64,000 nucleotides of DNA from an uncultured bacterium (GCA_965653675.1 CBFHBA010000021.1:2386-66385), one strand, 5' to 3'. Positions 16,420-37,339 are shown, counted from the first letter of the stretch. Numbers and translations: made by a program. Notes: generated from the sequence alone by a model not told the origin.

Positions 16420-17571
16420 CTATTGCTCGATGATCGGAAGCCGAATCGCGAAGGTCGATCCTTTGCCAACGACGGATTTCACATCAACGCTGCCGCCATG
16501 CACGCGCGCAATGCGACGCACTGCCGGAAGTCCGAGACCTGTGCCGCCTTTGCTGGTGGTGAAGAACGGACTGAAGATGTTCGTTAAATCTTGCGCCTCG
16601 ATACCGCGACCGTTGTCGGACACTTCGATAACAGCCTCTTCGCCGGCCTCATCGTCGGCCGGACGAACACGACGAATTCGCAGCGTCACCTTGCCGTCAC
16701 CGTCGAGTGCTTCGATCGCATTGATCATGAGATTAAGGACGGCATCTTCAATTTGCGTGGAGTCTACTGCAAGGAAGATGTCTTCGGCCGGCGGCACAAA
16801 TTCGATCTGCACTCCATCGCTCCCGCGTCCGCCGAGTTGCGCGCGCGCCAGATCGACCGTTGCCTGCATAAGCTCAGTCAGCGACGCGCGCACCAACTTC
16901 AGATTCCGCGGCCGCGCCCGATCGAGCAACGCTCGGACAGTGTTGTCGATGCGCTGCACCTGATGGCGCACGCCTTCCAGAGCCTCGCGTTCAGGATCGT
17001 TGGCATCACGCCGGCGAATTAGGATGTCTACGGCGCCCTGAATGCCCGCGAGCGGATTCTTAATCTCATGCGCCAGTCCGGCCGCCAGCTCGCCCGTGAA
17101 TGAAAGCTGCGCCGCACGTTGTAATTCAATCGTTTGTTGGCGAATCTGCTCTTCGGCGAGTTTCAGTTGCGTGACGTCGTGGCGAATCGCGACGTATTGA
17201 TAGGGCTTGCCGTCCTCATCAAGGAACGGCACGATGGTCGTGTCCACCCAGTAAATGCTCCCGTCCTTTGCCCGATTGCGAAGCTCGCCCTTCCAAACCT
17301 GCCCGCTCGCAATCGTCGTCCAGAGATTGCGAATGAATTCTTTTGAGTGATAGCCGGAATTGATGATGCGATGGTCCTGGCCCAGCAGCTCTTCGCGCGA
17401 ATATTTCGAGATCCGACAGAACTGATCGTTGACGTAGTTGATGATGCCGCGCTGATCGGTGATGGCGACGATGGTGGATTGATCGAGCGCGAACTTAATA
17501 TCCGCAAGCTCTTTGAGGGAATCAGCGAGCGCCTGCGCGGTGTGAGCTGTGCTAGCGCGATCGGCAGACAT
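16420..17571 (-). CDS. PAS-domain sensor histidine kinase
   Basis: PAS block (ITDQRGIINYVNDQFCRISKY...), H-box GLAHEIKNPLAGI, and an HATPase_c region with DNGRGI and GGTGLGL. Confidence 0.85.
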   Translation of the reverse strand: MSADRASTAHTAQALADSLKELADIKFALDQSTIVAITDQRGIINYVNDQFCRISKYSREELLGQDHRIINSGYHSKEFIRNLWTTIASGQVWKGELRNRAKDGSIYWVDTTIVPFLDEDGKPYQYVAIRHDVTQLKLAEEQIRQQTIELQRAAQLSFTGELAAGLAHEIKNPLAGIQGAVDILIRRRDANDPEREALEGVRHQVQRIDNTVRALLDRARPRNLKLVRASLTELMQATVDLARAQLGGRGSDGVQIEFVPPAEDIFLAVDSTQIEDAVLNLMINAIEALDGDGKVTLRIRRVRPADDEAGEEAVIEVSDNGRGIEAQDLTNIFSPFFTTSKGGTGLGLPAVRRIARVHGGSVDVKSVVGKGSTFAIRLPIIEQ

Positions 17572-17608
17572 GACGGCAGGAGTTTAGCACGCCTCAGATT
17601 ATTTGTTC

Positions 17609-19039
17609 TTAACTCGCTAACGCGCCCTGATCTTCTTCCAACTTCTTCAGCCGGTATCGCAATTGATCCCGTGAGATGCGGAGGAGTTCGGCGGCTTTCG
17701 TCTGATTGCCGCCACTGCGCTCAATCGCCTGCCGCACAAGAGACATCTCGACGTCTTCGAGTGCGACGCCTTCTGCGGGCAAACGAAACTGCGAACCGGA
17801 AACTCCGGCGCTGCGGCCATCAGTCGGGACACTTCTCGCGCCGTCGGCGACTGCGCGCGGAATGTATTTCATCGTAATGACGTCTTCATCTTCGAGAATC
17901 AGCGCGCGTTCGATCACATTGCGCAGCTCGCGCACATTGCCTGGCCATTCATAACGGCGAAAGGCAGCGGCGACTTCCGGGGCGATCCCTTTTACCTGCT
18001 TGCGCAGGCGTTTGCTGAATGAACCGATGTAATGTTCAGTCAGCAACAGCACGTCATCGCCGCGTTCGTGCAAAGACGGAATGTCGATTTGGATCACCGA
18101 CAGACGGTAGTACAGATCGAGGCGAAAGCGATTGGCTTCGCTTTCTGCTTTTAGATCGCGATTCGACGCCGCGATGATGCGTGCGTCGAAAGGAATATCT
18201 CGTAATCCGCCAACCCGTCGAAACGCGCCTTCTTCCAGCACACGCAAGAGCTTGGCTTGCAAGCTCAATTCAAGTTCGCCGATTTCATCCAGAAATAGTG
18301 TGCCGCCTTCGGCCTGCTCGAACAGACCTTCCTTACGCGCTTTCGCATCGGTGAACGCGCCTTTCTCGTAGCCAAACAGTTCGCTCTCGATCAGAGTTCC
18401 AGGAAGCGCGGCACAATTGATCGCCACGAACGGGCCATCGCCGCGATGCGATTGATAGTGAATCGCCTTGGCGACCAGATCTTTTCCGGTACCGGATGGA
18501 CCTTGCAACAACACTGACGAGACTTCACTCTCGGCGACTTTGCGCGCGATAGCTAACATCTCGCGCATCGCCGGCGAGTTGCCGATGATTTGATCGAAAC
18601 TGAATTGTTGAGCGCGTTCGCGGCGCAGCAGGTTTACTTCCTTGCGCAAGCGTCCCGCTTCAATGCCGTTGCGAATCGCGACATGCAGCTCTTCGAGATT
18701 GATCGGTTTGCCGATGAAGTCGTATGCGCCTCCGCGCAGGGCGGCGATCGTTTCGTCTACCAGCACGTTCGCGGTAATCATGATGACGACGGCGTCCGAT
18801 TGTCGCTGGCGAATTCGGCGCAGGACATCGATGCCTGACGCATCCGGCAAATTGATGTCGAGCAGAATCGCCGCGGGCGGTTCCCCATCGAAAGCGGCTA
18901 GCGCCGCTCCTGCGGTATCGGCCTCAACCGGCTCAAAGCCCCAGCCGCGCAGCGCTTCGCCAAGCGACCAACGGATCATCTTCTCGTCGTCTACAACAAG
19001 TATCTTTGGTTTTTTCAGTGTGTGCTTCTCGACTCTCAT
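17609..19039 (-). CDS. sigma-54-dependent response regulator (NtrC family)
   Basis: REC domain (ILVVDDE...), AAA+ domain with GPSGTGK and [15 protein letters not shown] (GAFTGA-type loop), and a C-terminal Fis-type HTH. Confidence 0.9.
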
Positions 19040-22153: not shown

Positions 22154-22253
22154 CTAACATGCCGAGTCGTTCACCGTAGAAACACTATGAAAATGGACGT
22201 AATAAGAAGAACTACTGCGAGTTTTTTCGGGTAAGTGCGGATTCTTGCCGGAG

Positions 22254-23885
22254 TTACTTCTTCGGCTGTGGCTCGTCTTTCCGGTGACACTCGGCGCACT
22301 GGAACATCGAGATGTCCCCGAGATTGATCGGGTGCTGAAATGGCTTGTTTGGTTTATGGCAGAAGTCGCACTTGCGGTCGGCGAGCGAGCCCAAGTCGAC
22401 CGGGTGAATGAACGGCCCGGTCTTTACAGACGCCTCGGGATTGGCGGAGTCGTAGATCATCGTGTGACAGATGTTGCAGTTGTTGCTGATGACTTTGCCG
22501 TCTTTGCTGACGTGATCGCCGTCGTGACAACGGAAACAGCCTGAGAAATAAAGATGGCCAATGTTGTTCGGGTGCGTCTGCCAATCTGTCTTCATCTCCG
22601 GAAAGAAATAAGTCTGAAAGATGCGCTGCACTTCGGCAATCGCGCCGTCCAGGGCCTGGCGTTTTTGGGAATAAACATCCGGATAGTTCTTGCTGTAGAA
22701 CTCAGTAAGCCCGGCCGCAATGTCCGCGACCGCTTGCGGCGTCGTGTCGTACGGCCGGCTCAACATTTCGACTGCCTTCTTCTTTAGATAAGGCAGCGAT
22801 GGATCCAATCTTCCCGCGACGAACGCGAGATCGACTGCAACATCCGGCGGTTGATAGACATGCGCAGGCCGGTTATGACAATCGACGCAGTCCATACGAC
22901 GCCTGCTTCCATTCGCGATCTGCTCCGCGGTTAGCGGCCGGTTGCGATCGTAATACTCTGTAACTTTGCCGCTGCGATCTTTGATCCGCACCCACGGAAT
23001 CACCTGGCGTCGATCATCAATCGAAATGTAAGTAATTTCGTTGGCGATGTTCATGTGCCAGTGAATGCCGGTCACGAGTCCCGTCTGTGGACTGCCGCCC
23101 CCTACGTTGATCAGCATGCGTCGCTGACGAAGCGTATTGTGTTCGTCATAGCCATAACGGTTGAAGACTTTGAGCTGCGCGCCGAAAAACTTTTCGGGCC
23201 AGTGACATTGTTCACAGGTTTCCTGCGCCGGCCGCAGATTGTGGACCGGCGAACCAATTGGCCGCGAATACTTTTTGAATGTAACGGAATAAAGTTGGTA
23301 CGCGCCGGAAAGTTTCGAGCGCACATACCAGCTCGCGCCCGGTCCGACGTGACAGCCCACGCAGCCAACCCGTGCATGCGCGCCGGCGAGATACGCAGTG
23401 TACTCGGGCTTCATCACCGTGTGACAGGTCTGCCCGCAAAAATTGACCGACTCAGTGTATTCGTAGCCGCGATAACTGCCGAACGCACTCGCGGAAACAA
23501 ACACGAAAGTTATGACTAAGAAAACGAAGAAGGCCTTGCGTGAACGCGGATCGTTCAAATCGAGTTTTGGATACGCTGGCTGCTCGCCCGGCGCGGCACG
23601 ATGGCGGCGGCGGCGCTCAAGCACCCTTCCGAGAATCGTGACGAACAATCCGAAGATCAGGATTGAAGGAAAGATGATGTAAGTGAGAATGCCGAGATAA
23701 GGGTTCTCGGCGTTGGAGGTGACTTCTATCAGAAAGAGCAGGACAACGCTGACAAAACTCGCGATAACGATCGCGCCGCCGACCAGGCTAACGTAATTGC
23801 GGAACAGGCTGGGTGACTTGGCCGCTGGTTCGGCGGGGCCTGCGTCGTCCGGGGCCTTCGTGATGTGCAGCTTTTCGTTGCTCAT
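22254..23885 (-). CDS. inner-membrane NapC/NirT-related multihaem cytochrome (ImcH-like)
   Basis: 543 aa with three N-terminal hydrophobic helices. Seven CXXCH motifs (CVGCH, CEQCH, CVDCH, CFRCH, CNICH, CDFCH, CAECH) plus one CX3CH (CGQTCH). Confidence 0.7.
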   Translation of the reverse strand: MSNEKLHITKAPDDAGPAEPAAKSPSLFRNYVSLVGGAIVIASFVSVVLLFLIEVTSNAENPYLGILTYIIFPSILIFGLFVTILGRVLERRRRHRAAPGEQPAYPKLDLNDPRSRKAFFVFLVITFVFVSASAFGSYRGYEYTESVNFCGQTCHTVMKPEYTAYLAGAHARVGCVGCHVGPGASWYVRSKLSGAYQLYSVTFKKYSRPIGSPVHNLRPAQETCEQCHWPEKFFGAQLKVFNRYGYDEHNTLRQRRMLINVGGGSPQTGLVTGIHWHMNIANEITYISIDDRRQVIPWVRIKDRSGKVTEYYDRNRPLTAEQIANGSRRRMDCVDCHNRPAHVYQPPDVAVDLAFVAGRLDPSLPYLKKKAVEMLSRPYDTTPQAVADIAAGLTEFYSKNYPDVYSQKRQALDGAIAEVQRIFQTYFFPEMKTDWQTHPNNIGHLYFSGCFRCHDGDHVSKDGKVISNNCNICHTMIYDSANPEASVKTGPFIHPVDLGSLADRKCDFCHKPNKPFQHPINLGDISMFQCAECHRKDEPQPKK

Positions 23886-25823
23886 CTACTCGGCTGTTTC
23901 GGGTGACGTTTCGTTGGGGGCGGGGCTTTCCGACGCTGTCAGGGTTTGTTTGTTCATCTGCTCGAATGCCAGCTCGTGCTCTTCACGATAAAGCTCTTCC
24001 GAAACTCGACCATCAATGAACGCGAAGTTTACCGGATAAACGTCGGGATCGAAAATCACATGATAGAAGTGCCAGACAATGATCGCGAGCGTCGCCAGCA
24101 CCGCTTCGTAAAAGTGAATCGCGAGCGCGATGTCGATCCACCAACGCGCGAGGAAACCGAATATGCCAATCTTGAACCAGATCATCAGGCCCGTTAGGCC
24201 CATGATGAAAGTGCCCCAAATGACGGCCCAATATTCAGCTTTTTCCGCATAACCGAATCGCGCGATCTTCGGTTTGATGCTCCGCAGACCGAGATAGTAA
24301 GCAAAGTTTTCCAAAAGGTCCTTGACGTCAGTGACACGTGGGAACATGTCTTTTACCCAGCGCCGGCCGTCTTTTGTGAGCGCGAGATATCCGATGTGAT
24401 AGACGCCGACGACAATCATCACAACCGCCGCCACGCGGTGAATGATACGGCGTAGATACTCATTTGATCCCAATAGCCACGCCAGCAATGAATCCGGATA
24501 CTGCAAAGCAAAGCCGCTCAGCACGAGCACGATAAAGCTGGTTAACAACAGCCAGTGTTGAAGTCTTTGATTGGCCGTGAGCCGCACAATTGTCCGGCGC
24601 TCTCGCCGCCTCGCGGCGACTTTAAGACGCCAGACAAGCACGTTGTGCAAAGCCATGCCGCCAATCGTCAAAAAGATCAGCGGCAGATAAATCCAGCGCA
24701 CGATGTGTATTCCGCGCGCCGACAAATCACGCGTCATCACGTTGGAAACGAGTTCAGAAGTGAGATGAACCTTTCCTTTCGTGAAGTTTCCGCTGGCGCC
24801 AATGTGACATTGTCCGCAGGTTTGTTGGAGGTTCTTCGCGTTAACCATTGAACGCGGGTCGGAAGAAGGCAGGATGTTGTGTACGCCGTGGCAACTCGCA
24901 CAATTCGCGACGACTTTTGATCCGAGCTGCGAGGCCAAGCCGTGATAGCTGTCTTTGTAACTCGCAACGCGGCCGCTGGCGACGCCGAACTCCTGGGTTA
25001 GAGTTACGCCTTCATGACACTTCGCACAGCTTTCAGTGGCGACGGCCGCTGACGCAAGATTTTTGTCGCCGTCGAACGGCTGCGTGATGTTGTGAATGCC
25101 ATGACAGTCAGTGCACACCGGCGCGCGCGAAACACCGCGCGCGACCGCCTGGCCATGCACACTCTGCATGAATTCTGTCGCTTCGGCACTGTGACACTTG
25201 CCGCACGTGTTGGGAATATTCACTTTTGCGATCGAGGATTGCGCGTTGGACGCGGGGAGAATTTCGTGCGCGCTGTGGCAATCAGTGCAGACAGCTGCAC
25301 TCACGTTGCCGCGCGCCATCGCTTTCGCATGCACGCTCTCGCGATACGAGAGGAATACTTGACTGCTGATTCCGCTGCCCTTCATCACCGATTGATCGCC
25401 GTGACAGCGTCCGCAGGTCGCAGCGATGTTTGCCCGATTGACGGGTGAAGCGGGATCATTCGCGGGCAGCATCGTTGTCATGTCGTGATTGCGTGCGTGG
25501 CAATCAAGACAACTTGCTGCCTTCGCCCCGCTCTGTAACGCTTGCGCGTGGAAACTGTGGCCATAACCGCTGTGCTGCGTCGTGTGGAATAACGAACCAG
25601 CGAGATATGGAAGTTGCTTTCCCGCGCCATGACATCCCTGACATTGAAGAGTGGGTGAAGGAATAGGAAACGCTTGCGCGTTGGGTCCGCCAATCACTGC
25701 GCCTTCGTTTGGCTGCACTGTTGTCGGCGACGAGGTTTGATTCGATTGAGCGGCGACCGAAAAAACAACAGGGAGTATCGACAAGCCGAAAAGAATGAGA
25801 ATTAGAGCGGCATGTCGTCGCAT
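23886..25823 (-). CDS. nonahaem c-type cytochrome fused to an FdnI/HydC-type dihaem cytochrome b membrane domain (CbcL-like)
   Basis: 645 aa with a signal peptide and 9 CXXCH motifs in the N-terminal ~370 aa. The C-terminal half has multiple TM helices with conserved His and an RLQHWLLLTSFIVLVLSGFAL-type helix. Confidence 0.8.
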   Translation of the reverse strand: MRRHAALILILFGLSILPVVFSVAAQSNQTSSPTTVQPNEGAVIGGPNAQAFPIPSPTLQCQGCHGAGKQLPYLAGSLFHTTQHSGYGHSFHAQALQSGAKAASCLDCHARNHDMTTMLPANDPASPVNRANIAATCGRCHGDQSVMKGSGISSQVFLSYRESVHAKAMARGNVSAAVCTDCHSAHEILPASNAQSSIAKVNIPNTCGKCHSAEATEFMQSVHGQAVARGVSRAPVCTDCHGIHNITQPFDGDKNLASAAVATESCAKCHEGVTLTQEFGVASGRVASYKDSYHGLASQLGSKVVANCASCHGVHNILPSSDPRSMVNAKNLQQTCGQCHIGASGNFTKGKVHLTSELVSNVMTRDLSARGIHIVRWIYLPLIFLTIGGMALHNVLVWRLKVAARRRERRTIVRLTANQRLQHWLLLTSFIVLVLSGFALQYPDSLLAWLLGSNEYLRRIIHRVAAVVMIVVGVYHIGYLALTKDGRRWVKDMFPRVTDVKDLLENFAYYLGLRSIKPKIARFGYAEKAEYWAVIWGTFIMGLTGLMIWFKIGIFGFLARWWIDIALAIHFYEAVLATLAIIVWHFYHVIFDPDVYPVNFAFIDGRVSEELYREEHELAFEQMNKQTLTASESPAPNETSPETAE

Positions 25824-25998: not shown

Positions 25999-26313
25999 TT
26001 ACCGGAGAGACTTGATATAGCCGACCAGAGCCTTCGCCTGATCCGGCGTGACGCCTCGTTCTTTGAAGGCCGGCATGTTGGGCGGCTTCTCCATCGTCTT
26101 GCCGTCGAGAACGGTTTGGATCAAGACATCATCAGCCTTGGTCTTGTCCAGCTTCTTTTCGGCAGTTGCGCCATGGCACATTTTGCACTTCGTGTTGTAG
26201 AGCGTTGCCGTATCGTCATCGGTCGCGCGTGCGGGTGTCGAAACGATCAGAAATGCGCCTGCAACAACCAGCGCTGCCACGACGAAAATCACTTTGAATA
26301 ACGGGCCCATCAT
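25999..26313 (-). CDS. monohaem class I c-type cytochrome
   Basis: 104 aa with a signal anchor, a single CKMCH and a distal Met candidate (PNMPAF). Confidence 0.8.
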   Translation of the reverse strand: MMGPLFKVIFVVAALVVAGAFLIVSTPARATDDDTATLYNTKCKMCHGATAEKKLDKTKADDVLIQTVLDGKTMEKPPNMPAFKERGVTPDQAKALVGYIKSLR

Positions 26314-26530
26314 TCATTGCCTCCAAAATTAACTAACATCTTCGCCTTGCGGCTGCGGTTTGAGCTTGGCAACGGACGTGCCGGGCTGATTTGTGCGGAC
26401 TTTCCGGGGAAGGATGGGGATTATGGGAACTTTTCCACGGAGAGTCGCGGGAAAGTTCTCGGTGCCATTAAACGTCGTCCGCTATACCGGTGTGAAAATA
26501 GCCCGGGCTTCAGCGCTTGGATCAGAGCGC

Positions 26531-26714: not shown

Positions 26715-27293
26715 TCACGCCGCCGCTTTCTTATGGCAAGCTACGCATTTCTTTGAAGTGGGCGGCGCCGGATCGAGTGTCGGCCGCGCCTTCACCACGT
26801 CGTCATGGCAACCACCACAGTTGCGGTGAAATGCCTGCTGATTCGTCATGATGGTTTCCTCTGTAGCACCTTCAAACTTCAGACGTGGAATCTCAGGCAG
26901 CAACTTCGGCTTCTGATCGGCGCGCGCGTGACAATCAGTGCAGATGACAACAGTCACGCTCGGATCTTTCGCAAGCAGATCAGCCGTTAGAGTAGTCGTG
27001 CGATCGGCCGGCCAAACAGTCTTGTGTGGCGGATGCTTCACCGCTTCCGCCGCAGGCTGCGCCGTGTGATGACACTCGACGCATTCGAGTTTCTTCGTGC
27101 CGTCGGCACTGCGATTCTCGGTGATGTGCTTCATGTGATTGAAACTCACAGGACCGAGCTTCGCCTCTTTTGCGAGCACGATTGTTTCAGGCGGCGCCTT
27201 TCCACCCTGCGCCGATGCCGGCGTCGGACTTAAGCGCATCGAAACCAGCGCCAGCGAAAAAACTAGAAATGCAAAGATCGCAATTACTTTCAT
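26715..27293 (-). CDS. tetrahaem cytochrome c3-family protein
   Basis: The start is taken at ATG 27293 (MKVIAIFAFLVFSLALVS...), preceded by GAGAGG. Motifs: FNHMKH, then CVECH, CTDCH, CGGCH and CVACH. Confidence 0.8.
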   Translation of the reverse strand: MKVIAIFAFLVFSLALVSMRLSPTPASAQGGKAPPETIVLAKEAKLGPVSFNHMKHITENRSADGTKKLECVECHHTAQPAAEAVKHPPHKTVWPADRTTTLTADLLAKDPSVTVVICTDCHARADQKPKLLPEIPRLKFEGATEETIMTNQQAFHRNCGGCHDDVVKARPTLDPAPPTSKKCVACHKKAAA

Positions 27294-27334
27294 AGTAACC
27301 TCTCTGGTTCTATGGAGTGCGGCGCACTCCAAAT

Positions 27335-28366
27335 TCAAAAGCGCCACGCTGCTCCGGTGTGGCACCGTTTACAACTCGTAAAGTCGTCACCGCCAAATGC
27401 GCGTTTGCCGTTGTGACAAGTCATGCAACTTTGACCACGGCCGGTCGCGTGATGATTGAGCGGCTCAGGCGTCGTGACTTGTCGTCGCTGCGCCTGACCG
27501 GGACGGACGTCGTGACATTCGCTGCACGTCACCTTCTCGTGCTTCGCATGGCTGAATCCCACGCGAAAGGCCGGCATCATCATGGGCGTACGCGCGTAGC
27601 CACCGAGTTGATGACAGGTTCCGCACGAAGAAATGTCGCGCCCACCGGATTGTGCGCGTGGCGTGTGACAACGAAAGCACGTCGTGTGCGCATTGAAATC
27701 AGCGGGAATCGTCATCGCGACGCCGCTGCGCGCAGGTTTGTGACAAGTCGCGCAGCTTACACTTCCCATGCTGACATGACGAGCGTGATCGAACTTCATC
27801 CTAAAACTCATCAATCGCGACGGAAATGGCTTAGTGGCTCCCGACTTCGGATCGGTGTGACAGATGGTGCAAATCGGACTATCCGGCGACGAGAACTGCT
27901 GCGCGTGACATCCTGCGCACGGAAGATGCTGTGACGCACCAGGACGTTTCGGCACCGACGCGTTCGAATCGCGACGATGGCACAGCAAGCAAGGCAGGCG
28001 CGAATGATTGCGGCTACTGTGCTGAAACTTCGAGTAGTCGAGTCCTTCGGGAAACTGCATTTGTGTCTGTGGCGACTGCTCTCCAAAACCTGTCGAGGCG
28101 TGAGAATTAGATGCGCGGAACACACCAAAACCGAGCACGAGAATGACGAACAGCGCCGCAGGCGCGAAATATTTATAGAATCGTAAGCCCGAATTGATTT
28201 GTTGCGGCTCTGCCGTCTGATGCCCGGTGGTGGCTCCGCCCCACCGGTCGACGTGCGTAACACGTTCTTGGGCTGCGCCCATTATTCGGGCGAAGCCCGG
28301 GTATCGAATTGATAAGCCTGATCGGAAGGTCAAAGACCTTCCGCATATCAGGCGGCCCAGCCGCAT
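27335..28366 (-). CDS. nonahaem cytochrome built from three c7-type trihaem modules
   Basis: 9 CXXCH motifs arranged as three modules, each of the form F.H..(.)H followed by 3 x CXXCH (FQHSSRNH..., FDHARH..., FSHAKH...). The start at 28366 is chosen to follow the upstream stop at 28384. One TM/signal anchor. Confidence 0.75.
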   Translation of the reverse strand: MRLGRLICGRSLTFRSGLSIRYPGFARIMGAAQERVTHVDRWGGATTGHQTAEPQQINSGLRFYKYFAPAALFVILVLGFGVFRASNSHASTGFGEQSPQTQMQFPEGLDYSKFQHSSRNHSRLPCLLCHRRDSNASVPKRPGASQHLPCAGCHAQQFSSPDSPICTICHTDPKSGATKPFPSRLMSFRMKFDHARHVSMGSVSCATCHKPARSGVAMTIPADFNAHTTCFRCHTPRAQSGGRDISSCGTCHQLGGYARTPMMMPAFRVGFSHAKHEKVTCSECHDVRPGQAQRRQVTTPEPLNHHATGRGQSCMTCHNGKRAFGGDDFTSCKRCHTGAAWRF

Positions 28367-28383
28367 CCATATGAATCTGATTC

Positions 28384-29610
28384 TCAAAGCGTCTTCTTCG
28401 GTTTCGGTGGCGGAATCGCCTGGGGATGGCTTTCGGGAATTGGTCCTTTTCCGAATGTCACATGACATTTTGTGCAGGTAAAATTCGGATCTTTCTTCTT
28501 CGCGTCGATTTCAAAATTCAGGATGCCGCCATCGTCGGTCGTAGTAGTGATGTGACAACCATCCGCGCCACCACAGGACTTGATCGGCACCTTCATTGTT
28601 TTGAAATCGACGGTGCTGAAAGTCGTAGTGTCAACCTTGTGACAATTCAGACAGTTCAAATCGGGGTGCTCGCCGCCTTCGTGACGAAATCCGCCCGCCG
28701 AAATGCGTCGACTCCAACGCGCAAGCATGGTTGCGTCAGCGCCCATGCTCGCGACCAGCGCCGCGTCAAAATCAGTCTGGGTCGGTTTTGGCGGTTGCAG
28801 CTTATGACAGACTTCGCAGTTCTTTGGCTCGGGCGCGATCCCGGAATCAGCGCTGTGACAAGTGAAGCAGATCGTGTGGCTGTTCGGAATCGTCTTGAAT
28901 GTTCCCTTCTTCAGCCAAAAGTTGTCGCCGAGGTTCTTCGGCGGTTTAGTCACATACTCTTCGCTTGATTGTCCCTGCGGCTGATACGTCTGATGACAAA
29001 CGGGGCAGCTCGCTGGGATCGCCGACTTCTTTTGCTGAAACGAAACGGAAACAAAGCGCAATGGTGCGTTCAACCAGCTCACGACGTCGATATGTTTGTC
29101 GTGCGGAAAGCCCACGCCGAATTCGGAAACAAACTCGCGACGCTTCAGTTTTGGATCAGTAAGATCGCCGAGGCTCGGAAACAGCCAACGCGCCGTATCT
29201 TTTGGCGTAACTGCGATATGACAGTTTGAGCAGATCGCCGGCGCCGGCTGTTCTCGCGCAAAAAATTGCGTGCGATGGCATTCAAGACAACTTGAGTGCT
29301 CAGGAAAATCCGAGACATCGGCGAAAGCCGCGGCGCCTTTGCGCACGAGGTTCCAATTTTTCGAAGGCACTTTGTGACATGAATTGCACGCGAGCTTTTG
29401 ACCCACCACATGCGTCGTATGCGAGAACGTTGTGTAGTCGTTCTTGGGCGTAGGCGGCTTTGGTTTTTGCTTGCGAGTCCGCGAGCGACGCTGGGCGCTG
29501 GACACAATGCCGACTGACGCCTCGAGAAAGCAGAGCGCCGTAACACAAACCAGAATTATGAGTGCAACCCGCCCAATGATCGTCAAAATGTGAGACAGTC
29601 TCCGCCTCAT
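28384..29610 (-). CDS. nonahaem cytochrome built from three c7-type trihaem modules (one CX4CH site)
   Basis: 8 CXXCH motifs plus CGGADGCH. The modules are headed by FSHTTH, FPHDKH and FRHEGGEH. N-terminal signal anchor. Confidence 0.75.
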   Translation of the reverse strand: MRRRLSHILTIIGRVALIILVCVTALCFLEASVGIVSSAQRRSRTRKQKPKPPTPKNDYTTFSHTTHVVGQKLACNSCHKVPSKNWNLVRKGAAAFADVSDFPEHSSCLECHRTQFFAREQPAPAICSNCHIAVTPKDTARWLFPSLGDLTDPKLKRREFVSEFGVGFPHDKHIDVVSWLNAPLRFVSVSFQQKKSAIPASCPVCHQTYQPQGQSSEEYVTKPPKNLGDNFWLKKGTFKTIPNSHTICFTCHSADSGIAPEPKNCEVCHKLQPPKPTQTDFDAALVASMGADATMLARWSRRISAGGFRHEGGEHPDLNCLNCHKVDTTTFSTVDFKTMKVPIKSCGGADGCHITTTTDDGGILNFEIDAKKKDPNFTCTKCHVTFGKGPIPESHPQAIPPPKPKKTL

Positions 29611-29615
29611 CCGAG

Positions 29616-31007
29616 TTAACCAACGTCGGTCTGTTGTTGCCGGGCTTCGATTTGCCTGATCTTTAAATAAACGAGCGTTGCCAAAAATAAAATGAACAGG
29701 AGTGAAACTGCCAGTCCCTTTCGCCGGAAACTAAGTTCGGCGAGCGCGCCGACGCCAGCCTGGTAACCCTTGTTCGCCGCATCCATCCCAGGTTCGATGA
29801 CTTTATTGACCTCAGCCGTTGACGAAGAATGAATCAAGACTCGCGCATGCGTCAGCGCATCGGTCGCGCCCTTCAAATCGAATTTCGGCTTGCTAACTTC
29901 CATGCCTTTGCGTTCGGCCAGGTTTAAAATCGCCGTCGACTTGTCGATGCTGGCGATCAGCTGGTCGATGCGCGAACGCATTGCCCCCGCGGCCACAAAT
30001 CCTTTGTCACCCTGCGTGTGGCAGTTGATGCAAAGCGCGCCTTGCTGTGTGCCAATCAGCGCGTCGCCGGGTTTCGGAATGGCGTGATTGCCATGACAAG
30101 TGATGCACTCGCCGAGTTGCTTGTCGTCGAACGCTTTTTTGTGCGGACTTGTCTGGAACAACTCAGCCTGTCGCGCGTGACATTGGCCGCAAACATTGGC
30201 GACCGAAGCAATCCCGGGCGGCGTCGCGCCATGATTGCCATGACAATCGTTACAAGTCGGCGCCGACAAATCCTGTTTGTCGTAGAGCGCTTTCGCGTGA
30301 ACGCTCAGCTTGTAATTGTCGAACTGGTTCGTCGGAATCCCGAACGGCTTCATGTAGTCGGCGCTCGCGTGACACTTCGCGCACGTGTTCGCAACGTTGC
30401 TCGGATAAACAGATGAAAGTGGATCGCTAGGCGCGCGAATGCCATGGACGCTGTGGCAACTTATGCAGGTTGCGACGCGTGTCTCGCCTTTCTCCTTCAA
30501 CAAACGGCCGTGGACGCTGGTGTAATACTCGCGTTCCTGGTCAACGCGCAGCGAAGGGTTGAACCGCTTCATCAGACTGGCGTCGCTGTGACACTTGCCA
30601 CAATAGGCCGGGATGTCGAGCGTTTTTGGTTTTCCCAGATAACCTTTGCGAACGTCGTGCGCAGCTTCCGCGGTGGTCGCGTTCGGATCACCACCATGGC
30701 AGTCGTTGCACATTAACCCGCGCGCTTTATGAATGTCGTTGTCGAACAACTTTGCGGGGGCGCTGATGCGTGGATCGGCTAGCTTGGCGTGACACTCGAT
30801 GCAAGAGTTTTTCTGTTGGGCTACGCCAAGCGTAAAGACGGTCAGAACTGCAATAACAACTCCAGCGACAGTCAGTCCTCTGTGTCTCTGTGCGATCTCG
30901 GTGTCTCTGTGGTGAGCATCCTCGCGCGACATATCACCACAGAGACACGGAGATCCACCGAGGCACAGAGACTTGATCCCGTACCGTTTCAAGATTCCTT
31001 CGCTCAT
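29616..31007 (-). CDS. nonahaem c-type cytochrome with a C-terminal transmembrane anchor (candidate cytochrome c subunit of the adjacent Rieske/cyt b complex)
   Basis: 9 CXXCH motifs and a C-terminal helix LAVSLLFILFLATLVYLKI. Codons 12-44 are encoded by a palindromic repeat, and ATG 30932 is an alternative start. Confidence 0.75.
   Translation of the reverse strand: MSEGILKRYGIKSLCLGGSPCLCGDMSREDAHHRDTEIAQRHRGLTVAGVVIAVLTVFTLGVAQQKNSCIECHAKLADPRISAPAKLFDNDIHKARGLMCNDCHGGDPNATTAEAAHDVRKGYLGKPKTLDIPAYCGKCHSDASLMKRFNPSLRVDQEREYYTSVHGRLLKEKGETRVATCISCHSVHGIRAPSDPLSSVYPSNVANTCAKCHASADYMKPFGIPTNQFDNYKLSVHAKALYDKQDLSAPTCNDCHGNHGATPPGIASVANVCGQCHARQAELFQTSPHKKAFDDKQLGECITCHGNHAIPKPGDALIGTQQGALCINCHTQGDKGFVAAGAMRSRIDQLIASIDKSTAILNLAERKGMEVSKPKFDLKGATDALTHARVLIHSSSTAEVNKVIEPGMDAANKGYQAGVGALAELSFRRKGLAVSLLFILFLATLVYLKIRQIEARQQQTDVG
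30877..30972. repeat. palindromic element (CACAGAGAC family) lying in frame inside the 5' end of the cytochrome gene
   Basis: A perfect 15-bp inner stem (gtgtctctgtggtga at 30901-30915 versus tcaccacagagacac at 30934-30948) plus imperfect outer arms. Length 96 nt, which is 32 codons. Confidence 0.8.
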
Positions 31008-31012
31008 ACTTT

Positions 31013-31055
31013 ATCCACAGCGCCGTCATCGCTTCGCTCTGCCGGCGCACTCCCA
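31013..31055 (+). repeat. solo half-copy of the 8126-8165 repeat arm
   Basis: atccacagcgccgtcatcgcttcgctctgccggcgcactccca aligns with atccaaagcgccgtcgccgcttcgctctgccggcgcactccag. Confidence 0.75.
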
Positions 31056-31056
31056 A

Positions 31057-32121
31057 TCACTTCGCGACGTATCCAACGATCGTCATCACGGCGATGTAAA
31101 CGACTGCAACTATGCCCACGATATTAAAGATCAAGTGCTTGCGGCGATTCGCGGGATCGCGATCAATAAACGGCACAACAAACAAAAGCGCGGCGATGAT
31201 GTTGAATGCCATGATCCCCAGCACTTCGCCGTCCATTCCGAGAATTTTTGCCGGCAACCACTTCAATGTCTGAAACATAAAAAGGAAGTACCACTCCGGC
31301 TTGATGCCGGCGGGCGCGGGCGCAAACGGATCAGCTTTCTCTCCCAGTTCCCACGGGAAAATTGCCGCGAGCGCTGCCAATACGCCGATAGCCAGAATCC
31401 AGCCGATCAAATCCCGCATGATGAAGTTCGGAAAAAACTTCATCCGGCGGTAGTTGTGTTCGTATTTCTTCGGCACGTGCATGCCGTGCAGTTGCACGAG
31501 CGCGACGTGCACGCCGAGAAACACGGTCGCAGTCGCAGGCAGCACGGCGACGTGAAAACCGAAGAACCGCGTCAGGGTCGCGCCGGTCACGTCGTCGCCG
31601 CCACGCAGAAAACGCAGCACCGGATGTCCCACGATGGGCACGACTCCGGCAATTTCAGTCCCGACCTTCGTCGCAAAAAACGCAAGCTTGTTCCAGGGCA
31701 AAAGGTACCCGCTGAACCCAAAACAGATCACGATGAAGAGCAGGAATACGCCACTGACCCAGGTAATCTCGCGCGGTTTGTGATAAGCGCGCAGAAAAAA
31801 GACGCTGAACATGTGAACGAACAGCGCCGCGATCATCAGGTTGGCCGACCAACTGTGAATCGAGCGAATCAACCAGCCGAACTTAACCTCGGTGATGATG
31901 AACTGAACGCTTTCGAAAGCGTTCTCAGCACTCGGGCGGTAGTAAAGCAGCAGGAGAATTCCAGTGACAACTTGCACGACGAACAGAAACAAGGTCATGC
32001 CGCCGAAGTAGTACCAGATCGAATGGCGCTGGAGGGGGACTTCCTTTTTGTCGGCGAGCTTTGTCAGCGTGCTAATCGACAGACGCTCGTCGAGCCAATT
32101 GGTCAGGGGCTGGATTCTCAT
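31057..32121 (-). CDS. cytochrome b (bc-complex, fused N- and C-terminal domains)
   Basis: The start is taken at ATG 32121 ([14 protein letters not shown]...). [37 protein letters not shown] and multiple TM helices. The upstream 31 codons of the ORF are repeat-encoded. Confidence 0.85.
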
Positions 32122-32141
32122 CGCTGAAAAGCAACCGGCTT

Positions 32142-32261
32142 TTCTGTAGCCCAGGCGTTTACCCTGGGAAAGCGTTGGAAGACTTCTGCAAAGCCTCCTT
32201 AGGGAGGCTTCCAATCATTTGATAAATCCGTGACCCAGCCGTAAACGGCTGGGCTACAGAA
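32142..32261. repeat. palindromic MITE-like element between the Rieske and cytochrome b genes
   Basis: ttctgtagcccaggcgtttaccctggg (32142-32168) versus cccagccgtaaacggctgggctacagaa (32234-32261) is 24/27 complementary. There is an inner hairpin aagcctcc/ggaggctt. Confidence 0.8.
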
Positions 32262-32266
32262 ATCCA

Positions 32267-32743
32267 TTAACTGCGCGTTACCACCACATCGTCGCCGCGC
32301 GTGTTGACCTTGAACTCTTCCAAAGGCCTTGGCGGAGGGCCGCCGATGTTTTTTCCGCTCAAGTTGTATTGCCCGTTGTGACAGGCGCACCAAATCTGTT
32401 TCGTGTCTTCTTTGTACTGGACAATGCATTCCAGGTGTGTGCACACCGCCGAAAATGCTTTGAACTCGCCGGCCGCCGTATGGACCAGGATGCCGGGCTT
32501 GTTCCCGAATTTGAAGATTTTTCCTGAGTTCGGCGGCACCTCGCTTAGTTTCGCCGCCACGACTGAATTCTCCGCCGACTCGACAATTTGCGGCGGCGTC
32601 ATGAACTTGAGAATGGGATAGATGATCGCGCCCAAAGTCGCGACGGCGCTGGTGCCAAGCAGCCAATCGAGAAAGCTTCTGCGCGCTGGTGAGTGAGGCG
32701 CGCTGAGATCAGTTTTGGAGTTACGCCGAATGTCAGAGTTCAT
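32267..32743 (-). CDS. Rieske [2Fe-2S] protein
   Basis: 158 aa with a twin-arginine-like [10 protein letters not shown], plus CTHLEC and CACHNGQY cluster boxes. Confidence 0.85.
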
Positions 32744-35245: not shown

Positions 35246-35338
35246 GACTTTTATCCTTGACTCAATGAACTCGATTAATGGCGAGCCGGGGCGCGCCAAA
35301 CACGGCGGCGGGCATGGCCCGCCGCCAGAGAATCCGCA

Positions 35339-37212: not shown

Positions 37213-37339
37213 TCATCTCTCTCCACAGCAAGGGTCGTAAATCAAGAATTCTGGCTTAAAAAGAGCGGAATCCTTGCTGGCGCAAGAGCAAGATATGTGC
37301 CCGCGTCGTCTATCTAACTTAGGCGAATAATCACGCTCT

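What the first reader, a model, noticed from the sequence alone, without database searches (positions are those of the whole stretch)
22254..25823. ImcH-like and CbcL-like inner-membrane cytochromes encoded side by side
ORF 23886..25823 has nine CXXCH motifs followed by an FdnI/HydC-type cytochrome b membrane domain, which is the published architecture of Geobacter CbcL. ORF 22254..23885 has three TM helices, a NapC/NirT-like region and seven CXXCH motifs, which is the published description of ImcH, plus an unusual CGQTCH. In Geobacter these two proteins are encoded at separate loci and serve different redox-potential windows. Here the stop of one abuts the start of the other (23885/23886), which suggests co-expression.
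Basis: partly seen in the sequence, partly recalled or inferred. Interest (0 to 1): 0.65.

Follow-up and report, generated by a model that had tools for sequence, protein, structure and literature searches.

The report
Paired ImcH-like and CbcL-like membrane cytochromes
Two intact neighbouring genes in a soil Acidobacteria (Pyrinomonadaceae) genome encode relatives of the Geobacter inner-membrane cytochromes CbcL and ImcH, and this side-by-side layout is the usual one outside Geobacter, not a rarity.

Summary
Both ORFs lie on the minus strand. The CbcL-like gene (23886-25823) is upstream and its TAG stop is followed directly by the ATG of the ImcH-like gene (22254-23885).

- **CbcL-like protein:** signal peptide, nine CXXCH motifs and an FdnI-type dihaem b domain. 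It has five membrane helices, not the six of Geobacter CbcL.
- **ImcH-like protein:** three membrane helices, an NrfH-like module, CX3CH plus seven CXXCH (eight haem sites, one more than Geobacter ImcH).
- **CX3CH site:** it is the family hallmark, not an oddity.
- **Similarity to Geobacter-type proteins:** 44% identity over the full length for ImcH. 29% and collinear for CbcL, at the published family's lower limit.
- **Operon:** with a preceding monohaem cytochrome c, the pair sits behind a conserved sigma-54 promoter.
- **Setting:** the operon ends a roughly 15-kb cluster with an MtrA-type decahaem, a putative porin, a Rieske/cytochrome b unit and three more multihaem cytochromes.
- **Adjacency elsewhere:** among 80 species-representative genomes, about 37 have a CbcL-like gene directly beside imcH and 5-7 more a b-only gene. 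All 30 Terriglobia-type loci have a b-cytochrome gene within about 1.2 kb.
- **Fusions and losses:** two natural b-cytochrome::ImcH fusions exist. Close relatives have deleted cbcL.

Verdict: ordinary members of known families in a common arrangement that I did not find described.

The parts
26369..26383 (-). sigma-54-type -24/-12 promoter element (CGGCACGTCCGTTGC), 55 nt upstream of the monohaem cytochrome c start codon
   Evidence: one mismatch to TGGCAC-N5-TTGC. The same motif lies 35-96 nt upstream of the orthologous gene in 15 of 19 Pyrinomonadaceae loci, against 0.015 expected per locus.
25999..26313 (-). Monohaem class-I cytochrome c (104 aa, one CKMCH, N-terminal signal or anchor); first gene of the proposed operon
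   Evidence: Pfam Cytochrome_CBB3 37.9 bits against a cut-off of 27. Best PDB matches are QcrC cytochrome c domains, E 7e-6, with no MtoD hit. It lies directly upstream of (cbcL-)imcH in all Pyrinomonadaceae loci and several Terriglobia loci.
23886..25823 (-). CbcL/MtoC/MtrH-family cytochrome: signal peptide, nine CXXCH, one linker helix plus a four-helix FdnI-type dihaem b domain, and a 62-aa cytoplasmic tail (five-helix subtype)
   Evidence: It is 29% identical and collinear with the Geotalea CbcL-orthogroup protein P0505, E 3e-66. H423, H462, H570 and H585 are invariant in 42 b domains and align to FdnI H18, H57, H155 and H169. Helix count.
22254..23885 (-). ImcH-family NapC/NirT(NrfH)-like multihaem quinol dehydrogenase: three membrane helices, CX3CH plus seven CXXCH (the eighth site sits in a C-terminal extension)
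   Evidence: It is 44% identical to Geobacter sp. UBA6151 ImcH over residues 23-510. The AF2 model has pLDDT 78 and pTM 0.72. The best structural match is NrfH 2j7a_C.
35339..36349 (-). Periplasmic decahaem cytochrome of the DmsE/MtrA family (10 CXXCH)
   Evidence: NCBIfam TIGR03508 238.6 bits against a cut-off of 192.2. PDB 6r2q_A, E 3.4e-30.
32873..35299 (-). 808-aa secreted protein with no recognisable family; putative outer-membrane porin partner of the decahaem (inferred only)
   Evidence: It always sits next to the decahaem in related loci. No Pfam, NCBIfam or PDB hit, even with a profile. The AF2 single-sequence model failed with pLDDT 28.
29616..32743 (-). Rieske Fe-S protein (32267-32743), cytochrome b (31057-32214) and a nine-haem cytochrome c with a C-terminal anchor (29616-31007): a bc-type quinol oxidoreductase module
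   Evidence: Pfam Rieske, Cytochrome_B and Cytochrom_B_C. Haem and helix counts. The module is present in L005-L008 and absent in L001 and L003.
26715..29610 (-). Three further multihaem cytochromes c: 8 haems (28384-29610), 9 haems (maximal ORF 27335-28468) and 4 haems (maximal ORF 26715-27365)
   Evidence: Conserved order in relatives. The starts of the last two are probably downstream of the maximal ORF starts, because the homologues in L001 are 324 and 192 aa.
36475..37212 (-). Crp/Fnr-family regulator at the head of the cluster
   Evidence: Pfam cNMP_binding plus HTH_Crp_2. Conserved position in L001 and in the Terriglobia loci L024, L035 and L048.
16420..19039 (-). NtrC-type sigma-54-dependent response regulator (17609-19039) and PAS histidine kinase (16420-17571): candidate regulators of the operon
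   Evidence: Pfam Response_reg, Sigma54_activat and HTH_8; PAS, HisKA and HATPase_c. They lie next to imcH in L001, L003, L005 and L007.

Best explanation
Shown from sequence:
- The two ORFs are functional genes of a Pyrinomonadaceae (Acidobacteriota) bacterium.
- One encodes a CbcL/MtoC/MtrH-family protein, nine c-haems fused to a dihaem b domain. The other encodes an ImcH-family eight-haem NrfH-like protein.
- With the monohaem cytochrome c gene just upstream, they form a three-gene unit behind a conserved sigma-54 promoter motif.
- This unit is the 3' end of a roughly 15-kb cluster: Crp/Fnr regulator, MtrA/DmsE-type decahaem, putative porin, Rieske/cytochrome b/9-haem unit, and 8-, 9- and 4-haem cytochromes.

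Inferred mechanism:
- Both proteins connect the menaquinone pool to periplasmic cytochromes.
- The ImcH-like protein oxidises menaquinol at an NrfH-type site on the periplasmic side, next to the CX3CH haem. The residues involved are H155, Q197, K191, E145 and Y206. It releases protons to the periplasm and passes electrons along its c-haems.
- The CbcL-like protein exchanges electrons with quinone through two b-haems (H462/H570 on the periplasmic side, H423/H585 on the cytoplasmic side) and passes them to its nine periplasmic c-haems.
- Electrons then move through the monohaem and multihaem cytochromes to the decahaem and across the outer membrane to an extracellular acceptor such as Fe(III), Mn(IV) or humic material.

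Regulation differs from G. sulfurreducens. There the two genes are separate and constitutive. Here they are co-transcribed, probably translationally coupled, and probably induced through the neighbouring NtrC-type regulator and PAS kinase.

The pairing is an old, widely inherited arrangement and not an innovation of this genome.
For: - **Architecture and thresholds:**
- **ImcH similarity:** 44% full-length identity to a Geobacter-type ImcH. This lies within the 31.5-49% reported for non-Geobacter homologues (PMC6295460).
- **ImcH motifs:** all seven family haem motifs are conserved. E145, H155, K191, Q197 and Y206 have the same spacing as E127, H137, K173, Q179 and Y188 of G. sulfurreducens ImcH (bioRxiv 10.1101/2023.05.03.539133).
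- **ImcH fold:** the AF2 model has three long membrane helices, and NrfH is its best PDB match.
- **CbcL-like protein:** collinear with the Geobacterales CbcL orthogroup, with four invariant b-haem histidines.
- **Operon:** the stop abuts the start, and the -24/-12 motif is conserved in 15 of 19 relatives.
- **Regulators:** a sigma-54 activator and a PAS kinase are adjacent.
- **Cluster context:** the decahaem passes the DmsE-family cut-off and matches 6r2q_A. The same cluster order occurs in relatives.
- **Pairing across genomes:** about 37 of 80 genomes have the pair directly adjacent. Identity matrices of the two proteins correlate at r = 0.92, with 0 of 2000 Mantel permutations reaching that value.
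Against: - Nothing here is experimental. No expression, localisation or activity data exist for this lineage.
- The direction of electron flow is not determined.
- The CbcL-like protein is only 29% identical to the Geobacter type, at the lower bound (28.6%) of the published family range. It also lacks the sixth helix, so functional equivalence to CbcL as a low-potential specialist is unproven.
- The 808-aa 'porin' has no detectable homology to MtrB or PioB, and its model failed.
- No MtrC/OmcA-type surface cytochrome was recognised.
- cbcL has been deleted in close relatives that keep imcH. The two are therefore not mutually dependent in this family.
Confidence: 0.7

Rival explanations
1. The two proteins are not alternative parallel quinol oxidases. 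They are subunits of one inner-membrane complex, in which the dihaem b domain of the CbcL-like protein packs against the membrane helices of the ImcH-like protein. This would join a periplasmic-side NrfH-type quinol site to a transmembrane b-haem wire with a cytoplasmic-side quinone site.
For: - Two unrelated natural proteins fuse a complete Ni_hydr_CYTB domain to a full-length ImcH: P0282 (734 aa, NCBI MAG, preceded by a 511-aa multihaem c) and P0302 (771 aa).
- Such a fusion is topologically possible. The five-helix subtype ends in the cytoplasm and ImcH starts there.
- A b-cytochrome gene, fused or b-only, lies within about 1.2 kb of imcH in 30 of 30 Terriglobia-type loci, directly adjacent in 27-28 of them. 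It is also adjacent in many Ignavibacteriota and Bacteroidota loci, often with overlapping stop and start.
- The adjacent proteins co-diverge, r = 0.92.
Against: - Relatives at 78-80% ImcH identity have lost cbcL, two of them leaving remnants, and keep imcH and the rest of the cluster.
- Most Pyrinomonadaceae lack cbcL altogether.
- In G. sulfurreducens the two act independently, with separate mutant phenotypes (PMC4251993; bioRxiv 10.1101/2021.04.15.440034).
- Each fusion is a singleton at 90% identity.
- The correlation of identities is also expected for any two vertically inherited genes.
- No interface prediction could be run.
Confidence: 0.3
2. The cluster works inwards. It would be an Mto-like electron-uptake system for Fe(II), Mn(II) or reduced humics, in which the decahaem and porin import electrons. 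The monohaem c would play the MtoD role, and the CbcL/MtoC-like and ImcH-like proteins would reduce quinone, with the Rieske/cytochrome b unit serving uphill or downhill branches.
For: - CbcL homologues MtoC and MtrH occur in mtoAB-mtoD clusters of Fe(II) oxidisers (PMC6295460, section 10).
- This cluster has an MtrA-family decahaem, a barrel candidate, a monohaem c and a CbcL/MtoC-like gene, but no recognisable MtrC/OmcA surface decahaem.
- A Rieske/cytochrome b complex is in the same cluster.
- From general knowledge, Pyrinomonadaceae are mostly aerobes.
Against: - The monohaem c shows no detectable similarity to any MtoD structure at E <= 1.
- ImcH has so far been implicated only in quinol oxidation (PMC6295460, section 11).
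- Three extra multihaem cytochromes of 8, 9 and 4 haems could serve as the surface components.
- A Crp/Fnr regulator heads the cluster. From general knowledge, that fits low-oxygen induction of a reductive pathway.
Confidence: 0.2
3. The ImcH-like protein is the NrfH/NapC-type membrane anchor of a periplasmic nitrogen-oxide or hydroxylamine enzyme, and the resemblance to ImcH is superficial.
For: Weak NrfH, NapC and TorC model hits, all far below their cut-offs (TIGR03153 50.5 bits against 134.2). NrfH is the best PDB match.
Against: - There is full-length homology to the ImcH family, including the roughly 330-residue C-terminal part that NrfH lacks.
- No NrfA, Hao, Nap or Tor catalytic subunit is in the cluster.
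- No CXXCK motif occurs in any cluster protein.
Confidence: 0.04

Closest known systems
ImcH (GSU3259) of Geobacter sulfurreducens and its family (Levar et al. 2014, PMC4251993; Zhong and Shi 2018, PMC6295460)
   Same: - Three N-terminal membrane helices and an NrfH/NapC-like region around helix 3.
- The first haem motif is CX3CH, followed by six conserved CXXCH.
- The proposed quinol-site residues (Glu, Lys, Gln, Tyr) are conserved at identical spacing.
- 44% identity over the full length to a Geobacter-type orthologue.
   Different: - An eighth haem motif (C530AECH) sits in a C-terminal extension. It is shared by the Pyrinomonadaceae loci but absent from 29 diverse representatives.
- The gene is in an operon with a sigma-54 promoter motif, not monocistronic and constitutive.
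- It is embedded in a cluster with an MtrA-type decahaem, which PMC6295460 reported not finding next to imcH.
CbcL (GSU0274) of G. sulfurreducens and the CbcL/MtoC/MtrH family
   Same: - Nine CXXCH in a periplasmic N-terminal half, fused to a HydC/FdnI-type dihaem b domain.
- Same domain order, and collinear alignment over both halves.
- Conserved b-haem histidines.
   Different: - Only 29% identity.
- Five instead of six membrane helices, so the C-terminus is cytoplasmic.
- It belongs with the 9-, 11- and 13-haem acidobacterial and ignavibacterial subtype that precedes imcH, not with the Geobacterales orthogroup.
- The gene is dispensable in close relatives.
CbcBA (GSU0593-0594) with its regulator BccR in G. 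sulfurreducens (bioRxiv 10.1101/2021.04.15.440034)
   Same: A quinol-oxidising b/c cytochrome unit expressed from a sigma-54-dependent promoter, with a response-regulator-type sigma-54 activator encoded next to it.
   Different: There the b and c parts are separate proteins and no ImcH is involved. Here the b and c parts are fused and co-transcribed with an ImcH homologue. Regulation is only predicted.
MtoAB-MtoD-MtoC/CymA and MtrAB(C) porin-cytochrome clusters
   Same: A DmsE/MtrA-family decahaem next to a large secreted protein, together with a small monohaem c and a CbcL/MtoC-like gene in one cluster.
   Different: - The 808-aa protein has no detectable MtrB/PioB similarity.
- The monohaem c shows no similarity to MtoD.
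- No MtrC was recognised.
- The cluster additionally carries ImcH, a Rieske/cytochrome b unit and three other multihaem cytochromes.
NrfH of the NrfHA nitrite reductase complex (PDB 2J7A, 2VR0)
   Same: It is the best structural match for the helix-3 plus first-haems module (Foldseek probability 1.0, TM-score 0.48 relative to NrfH over 114 columns).
   Different: NrfH is a 145-aa, four-haem, single-helix protein bound to NrfA. Here the module is part of a 543-aa, eight-haem, three-helix protein with no NrfA partner.

Membership tests
ImcH family | Three N-terminal transmembrane helices | tested here: met
   Hydropathy segments 37-55, 66-84 and 118-136. AF2 helices 31-57, 62-97 and 113-144. The basic loop 85-117 places the N-terminus in the cytoplasm.
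ImcH family | NapC/NirT (NrfH-like) region spanning helix 3 and the first haem motifs | tested here: met
   PF03264 34.5 bits against a cut-off of 24.1, residues 115-206. NrfH 2j7a_C is the best sequence and fold match in PDB.
ImcH family | Atypical CX3CH as the first haem motif, next to the membrane domain | tested here: met
   C150-GQT-C154-H155. F149, C150, C154, H155, M158 and P160 are invariant in 30 diverse representatives, two of which have CX2CH instead.
ImcH family | Six further CX2CH motifs at conserved positions (seven haems in Geobacter) | tested here: met
   C175, C224, C333, C450, C470 and C506 align with the family motifs. There is one extra motif at C530. PMC6295460 reports 5-9 CX2CH in non-Geobacter homologues.
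ImcH family | Conserved quinol-site and haem-1 residues (E127, H137, K173, Q179 and Y188 in GSU3259) | tested here: met
   E145, H155, K191, Q197 and Y206 have identical spacing. H155 is invariant, and E145 and K191 are nearly invariant. Q197 matches the consensus Q, and Y206 corresponds by spacing only.
ImcH family | Full-length sequence similarity to Geobacter ImcH | tested here: met
   44% identity and 63% positives over residues 23-510 to Geobacter sp. UBA6151 ImcH, E 2e-164. GSU3259 itself was not compared.
ImcH family | Required for reduction of acceptors above about -0.1 V | not testable with these tools
   Needs genetics and electrochemistry.
CbcL/MtoC/MtrH family | N-terminal periplasmic multihaem c domain (nine CX2CH in CbcL) | tested here: met
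   Nine CXXCH at residues 61-336 after a signal peptide.
CbcL/MtoC/MtrH family | C-terminal HydC/FdnI-type dihaem cytochrome b domain with conserved histidine ligands | tested here: met
   PF01292 55.2 bits against a cut-off of 30.1. FdnI 1kqf_C, E 3.7e-5. H423, H462, H570 and H585 are invariant in 42 b domains.
CbcL/MtoC/MtrH family | Six transmembrane helices (most members, including Geobacter CbcL) | tested here: not met
   Five helices and a 62-aa hydrophilic tail. Geobacter-type and 19-haem-type proteins have an extra C-terminal helix. PMC6295460 lists a few five-helix members, so this marks a subtype and does not exclude membership.
CbcL/MtoC/MtrH family | Collinear similarity to Geobacter CbcL beyond the haem motifs | tested here: met
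   29% identity over 565 columns, query 92-615 against 39-559 of P0505 (Geotalea uraniireducens), E 3e-66. The published family range is 28.6-100%. GSU0274 itself was not compared.
CbcL/MtoC/MtrH family | Required for reduction of acceptors below about -0.1 V | not testable with these tools
   Needs genetics and electrochemistry.
MtrAB/MtoAB porin-cytochrome conduit (context) | DmsE/MtrA-family periplasmic decahaem | tested here: met
   TIGR03508 238.6 bits against a cut-off of 192.2. PDB 6r2q_A, E 3.4e-30.
MtrAB/MtoAB porin-cytochrome conduit (context) | MtrB/PioB-type outer-membrane beta-barrel next to it | tested here: inconclusive
   The 808-aa neighbour has a signal peptide but no Pfam, NCBIfam or PDB hit, also with a 14-sequence profile. 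The single-sequence AF2 model had pLDDT 28.
Sigma-54-dependent operon | -24/-12 element (GG-N10-GC) upstream, and an enhancer-binding protein nearby | tested here: met
   CGGCAC-N5-TTGC lies 55 nt upstream of the monohaem c gene and is conserved in 15 of 19 relatives. PF00158 228.6 bits in the regulator at 17609-19039. Dependence on RpoN was not tested.

The most novel reading that the evidence does not exclude
ImcH may not be a stand-alone quinol oxidase in most bacteria. It could be the partner of an FdnI-type dihaem b cytochrome, which is either CbcL-like or a split b plus multihaem-c pair. Together they would form an ancestral two-site inner-membrane complex linking a periplasmic-side and a cytoplasmic-side quinone site. 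On this reading, the separate potential-specific ImcH and CbcL of Geobacter are a derived, uncoupled state. The evidence that leaves this open is the near-universal adjacency in Terriglobia-type genomes, the recurrent adjacency in Ignavibacteriota, Bacteroidota, Dadabacteria and Zixibacteria, two independent b::ImcH gene fusions, and the matching cytoplasmic termini of the five-helix subtype.
Probability: 0.3. Interest if true: 0.65.

Novelty: new member of a known kind. Interest (0 to 1): 0.35.

Why it matters
ImcH and CbcL are used as marker genes for extracellular electron transfer in metagenomes. The Geobacter model of separate, constitutive, potential-specific oxidases is usually carried over to other phyla.

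This locus and its relatives show a different picture in abundant soil Acidobacteriota:
- The two genes are typically one transcription unit.
- They are probably inducible through sigma-54.
- They are tied to an MtrA-type decahaem module.
- They are sometimes fused at the b-domain/ImcH junction.

This gives a concrete hypothesis to test: complex formation against parallel routes. It also cautions against reading the 'high-potential' and 'low-potential' labels into non-Geobacter genomes. For this particular window, the finding is a routine annotation of known families.

Tried and rejected
1. **G. sulfurreducens sequences.** I could not obtain GSU3259 or GSU0274. None of the three homologue searches listed G. 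sulfurreducens. I used a Geobacter sp. UBA6151 ImcH and a Geotalea uraniireducens CbcL-orthogroup protein as proxies.
2. **Solved structures.** No ImcH or CbcL structure exists in PDB by sequence.
3. **Structure of the 808-aa putative porin.**
   - The single-sequence model was useless, pLDDT 28.
   - Profile and sequence searches of PDB found nothing.
   - Its porin role therefore rests on gene position only.
4. **Complex prediction.** I considered folding a CbcL+ImcH concatenate to test complex formation but did not run it. Concatenated rows are not accepted, and the tool returns no inter-domain error map, so the result could not have been interpreted.
5. **MtoD homology of the monohaem c.** Not supported: no MtoD hit at E <= 1.
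6. **Nitrite or hydroxylamine enzyme context.** Rejected: no catalytic subunits and no CXXCK motif.
7. **Generic scans.** The sigma-70 promoter and terminator scan was at chance level and added nothing. The window-wide count of sigma-54-like motifs was also at chance (7 found, 5.6 expected). Only their conserved position across relatives is informative.
8. **Literature.** Five searches found no statement that imcH and cbcL are directly adjacent or fused. Figures 5 and 7 of PMC6295460 are not held, so I cannot exclude that the arrangement is drawn there.

Full report
**Observation**

The 645-aa ORF 23886-25823 comes first in the direction of transcription. Its TAG stop is followed without any spacer by the ATG of the 543-aa ORF 22254-23885.

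The upstream protein has these features:
- a signal-peptide-like N-terminus;
- nine CXXCH motifs between residues 61 and 336;
- five hydrophobic helices;
- a 62-residue hydrophilic tail.

It passes the Pfam threshold for the prokaryotic cytochrome b561/FdnI family (PF01292, 55.2 bits against a cut-off of 30.1). It aligns to E. coli FdnI (1kqf_C, E 3.7e-5).

The downstream protein has three helices, CGQTCH at residue 150 and seven CXXCH motifs. It passes the NapC/NirT threshold (PF03264, 34.5 bits against 24.1). Homologues cover both proteins end to end, so both genes are intact.

**Source organism**

The nearest relatives of both proteins (73-91% identity) come from soil and sediment metagenomes. 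Where they are named, they come from Pyrinomonadaceae or Blastocatellia MAGs.

**ImcH membership**

A search of 1.84 billion cluster representatives found 3709 relatives at E <= 0.001. Thirty diverse full-length representatives (33-52% identity) align over the whole length. The invariant columns include F149-C150-x3-C154-H155-x2-M158-x-P160 and the CXXCH motifs at residues 175, 224, 333, 450 and 470. The motif at 506 is nearly invariant.

The CX3CH is therefore the family signature, as published (PMC4251993, Fig. 1 legend; PMC6295460, section 11).

The residues proposed for haem-1 ligation and menaquinol oxidation in G. sulfurreducens ImcH are E127, H137, K173, Q179 and Y188 (bioRxiv 10.1101/2023.05.03.539133). 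They correspond at identical spacing to E145, H155, K191, Q197 and Y206 here. H155 is invariant, and E145 and K191 are nearly invariant. Q197 matches the consensus Q, and Y206 corresponds by spacing only.

Further evidence:
- Against the ImcH of a Geobacter sp. MAG, the protein is 44% identical over residues 23-510 with only 8 gaps (E 2e-164).
- An AlphaFold2 model built on the 30-sequence alignment reached pLDDT 78 and pTM 0.72, with three long membrane helices.
- Its best PDB matches are NrfH chains (2j7a_C, 2vr0_F; probability 1.0). This mirrors what was reported for the Geobacter protein.

The one difference is an eighth haem motif (C530AECH) in a C-terminal extension. It is absent from the 29 other representatives and shared by the Pyrinomonadaceae loci.

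**CbcL membership**

The protein has the published domain order: nine c-haems, then a HydC/FdnI-type b domain. A nine-haem plus b protein from a Geobacter-like MAG (L078) belongs to the Geobacterales orthogroup. It is 72-81% identical to proteins of Trichlorobacter, Pelotalea and Geotalea species.

Against the Geotalea uraniireducens member (P0505), the window protein aligns collinearly across both domains (29% identity, E 3e-66). That is the lower end of the 28.6-100% range published for the CbcL/MtoC/MtrH family (PMC6295460, section 10).

Four histidines (H423, H462, H570, H585) are invariant in 42 b domains, including the Geobacter type and b-only proteins. They align with the four haem ligands of FdnI.

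Unlike Geobacter CbcL, which has six helices (PMC6295460), this protein and all the 9-, 11- and 13-haem acidobacterial and ignavibacterial relatives have five helices and a cytoplasmic tail. It is therefore a member of the broad family, in a subtype distinct from the characterised protein.

**Surroundings**

Read along the minus strand, the region holds:
1. a Crp/Fnr regulator (36475-37212);
2. a decahaem that passes the DmsE/MtrA family cut-off and matches 6r2q_A at E 3.4e-30 (35339-36349);
3. an 808-aa secreted protein with no recognisable family (32873-35299);
4. a Rieske protein, a cytochrome b and an anchored nine-haem cytochrome (29616-32743);
5. 8-, 9- and 4-haem cytochromes (26715-29610);
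6. a monohaem class-I cytochrome c (25999-26313);
7. the CbcL-like gene and then the ImcH-like gene.

Downstream follow a GCS2+CBS protein, an NtrC-type sigma-54 activator and a PAS histidine kinase.

I counted 58 c-haem motifs in the cluster. No NrfA, Hao, Nap or Tor subunit and no CXXCK motif is present.

**Operon**

A sigma-54-type element (CGGCAC-N5-TTGC) lies 55 nt upstream of the monohaem c start. On its own it is not significant, with 7 such motifs in the window against 5.6 expected.

However, the same motif sits 35-96 nt upstream of the orthologous gene in 15 of 19 Pyrinomonadaceae loci. The background expectation is 0.015 per locus.

Taken together with the abutting stop and start, this indicates a c104-cbcL-imcH transcription unit under a sigma-54 activator. 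That resembles cbcBA and BccR in Geobacter and differs from the constitutive, monocistronic imcH (PMC4251993; bioRxiv 10.1101/2021.04.15.440034).

**How common is the adjacency?**

A scan of one genome per species (GTDB) with the ImcH alignment returned at least 598 confirmed hits. The best 80 were kept. I mapped CbcL-like genes, defined as multihaem c plus b in one ORF, and b-only genes in each locus.

| Group | Loci | Arrangement of the b-cytochrome gene relative to imcH |
|---|---|---|
| Terriglobia-type (Terriglobales, Sulfotelmatobacter, Korobacteraceae, Thermoanaerobaculia, Binatia) | 30 | All 30 have one within about 1.2 kb. In 26 it is a fused CbcL-like gene directly upstream on the same strand. 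|
| Other phyla (Ignavibacteriota, Bacteroidota, Dadabacteria, Zixibacteria and others) | 32 | 7 fused genes directly adjacent; 5 b-only genes directly upstream; 2 with one small gene between; 9 at 2-9 kb; 9 with none in the available flank. |
| Geobacter or Desulfuromonadales-like MAGs (included in the row above) | 5 | 3 have the CbcL orthologue at about 4.9-8.4 kb and 2 have no fused CbcL within 10 kb. This matches the 7-gene distance reported for Desulfuromonas soudanensis (PMC4914508). |
| Pyrinomonadaceae | 18 | The pair is directly adjacent in 4 loci; a fifth (L009) carries cbcL inverted downstream. |

Overall, about 37 of 80 loci have a fused CbcL-like gene touching imcH. Another 5-7 have a b-only gene there.

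Two close relatives of the window retain 88-aa and 43-aa C-terminal remnants of cbcL directly in front of imcH. These indicate independent deletions. In a third relative, cbcL lies inverted downstream.

**Fusions**

Two representatives of the ImcH family carry a complete Ni_hydr_CYTB domain fused to the N-terminus of a full-length ImcH. They are P0282 (734 aa) and P0302 (771 aa). They come from compositionally very different lineages, and each is a singleton at 90% identity. P0282 sits in an NCBI MAG directly after a 511-aa multihaem cytochrome.

Such a fusion is topologically sound. The five-helix b-domain proteins end in the cytoplasm and ImcH begins there.

Pairwise identities of adjacent CbcL-like and ImcH-like proteins across 34 genomes correlate at r = 0.92, with 0 of 2000 Mantel permutations reaching that value. 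This shows joint inheritance. It does not prove interaction.

**Interpretation**

The best-supported reading is that these are the inner-membrane quinol:cytochrome oxidoreductases of an extracellular electron transfer cluster. They are co-transcribed and probably inducible.

The steps from menaquinol to the ImcH-like c-haems, and from the b-haems to the CbcL-like c-haems, are inferred by homology with NrfH, FdnI and the Geobacter proteins. Three further points are also inferred and not shown: the onward path through the MtrA-type decahaem, the porin role of the 808-aa protein, and the outward direction of flow.

A physical complex of the two proteins is possible. The fusions and the near-universal adjacency in Terriglobia-type genomes favour it. 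The repeated loss of cbcL with retention of imcH in the window's own family argues against it.

An Mto-like inward pathway cannot be excluded. A nitrogen-oxide role is unlikely.

**Novelty**

Both families are known, and so are ImcH homologues in Acidobacteria. Porin-multihaem clusters in Acidobacteriota have been described recently without naming ImcH or CbcL (bioRxiv 10.64898/2026.05.27.727921).

Five literature searches found no paper that states the direct cbcL-imcH adjacency or the b::ImcH fusion. PMC6295460 says only that imcH is often next to c-type cytochrome genes, and that no mtrAB genes were found beside it. Its figures are not held, so the arrangement may be drawn there.

The window itself is an ordinary member of a widespread arrangement. 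The generalisation about pairing is a modest comparative point that can be tested.

Noticed in passing
L001 9675-10001 and L003 9869-9997 (relatives of the window): C-terminal remnants of the CbcL-like gene (88 aa and 43 aa, 69% and 56% identical to window residues 560-645 and 603-645) lie directly upstream of intact imcH. These are two independent deletions of cbcL in strains whose ImcH is 79-80% identical to the window's.
   Followed up: yes
P0282 (locus L083 4261-6465) and P0302: Natural single polypeptides join a complete FdnI-type cytochrome b domain to a full-length ImcH, in two unrelated lineages. In L083 a 511-aa multihaem cytochrome gene overlaps the start of the fusion.
   Followed up: partly
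window 29616-32743; L053-L057, L059, L063, L074 (downstream of imcH); L020, L060, L067, L071: A Rieske / cytochrome b / 9-11-haem cytochrome c module recurs next to imcH in Acidobacteriota, Ignavibacteriota, Bacteroidota, KSB1, Verrucomicrobiia and Zixibacteria. Up to three different quinol-oxidising modules are therefore clustered. The window cytochrome b scores 214 bits on the ExtP model (selenite/tellurite operon), below its cut-off of 290.
   Followed up: partly
window 37288-37302 (-) and about 22149-22164 (-): Two further sigma-54-like -24/-12 motifs. One lies upstream of the Crp/Fnr gene, with the same motif at the corresponding place in L001 and upstream of the decahaem in L003, where no Crp gene was mapped. 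One lies at the annotated start of the GCS2+CBS gene, also seen in L003. This suggests the GCS2+CBS gene has its own promoter and a later start codon.
   Followed up: partly
window 20156-22153 (-): A 665-aa protein with a glutamate-cysteine-ligase family 2 domain and two CBS domains keeps company with the cytochrome cluster in several relatives: downstream of imcH in L003, and upstream of Crp in L013, L014 and L049. Its role is unknown.
   Followed up: no
window 38707-40767 (-); L001 20346-21638: By its sequence, this ORF looks like a FeoB-type ferrous iron transporter next to the cluster in the window (no family scan was run). L001 also has FeoA and FeoB within 10 kb of imcH. A pyruvate:ferredoxin oxidoreductase-like ORF (1189 aa) is at window 42478-46047.
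   Followed up: no
L052 3159-5351; L070 9941-11842: ImcH homologues with many extra haem motifs (15+1 in a Methylomirabilales MAG, 12+1 in an Acidobacteriota MAG). Long representatives P0249, P0259 and P0371 (about 940 aa) add C-terminal multihaem domains.
   Followed up: no
L019 (CAZTUB010000012.1); PDB 6r2q_A: Two labelling oddities in public records. L019 is titled 'uncultured Clostridia bacterium' but carries the Pyrinomonadaceae-type cluster with the eight-motif ImcH. The decahaem chain 6r2q_A is named 'Cystathionine beta-synthase' in the PDB copy.
   Followed up: no
window 27335-28468 and 28384-29610; 26715-27365 and 27335-28468: The maximal ORFs of neighbouring multihaem genes overlap by 85 and 31 nt. 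Homologues in L001 are shorter (324 and 192 aa), so the true starts of the 9-haem and 4-haem genes are probably downstream of the listed ORF starts.
   Followed up: no
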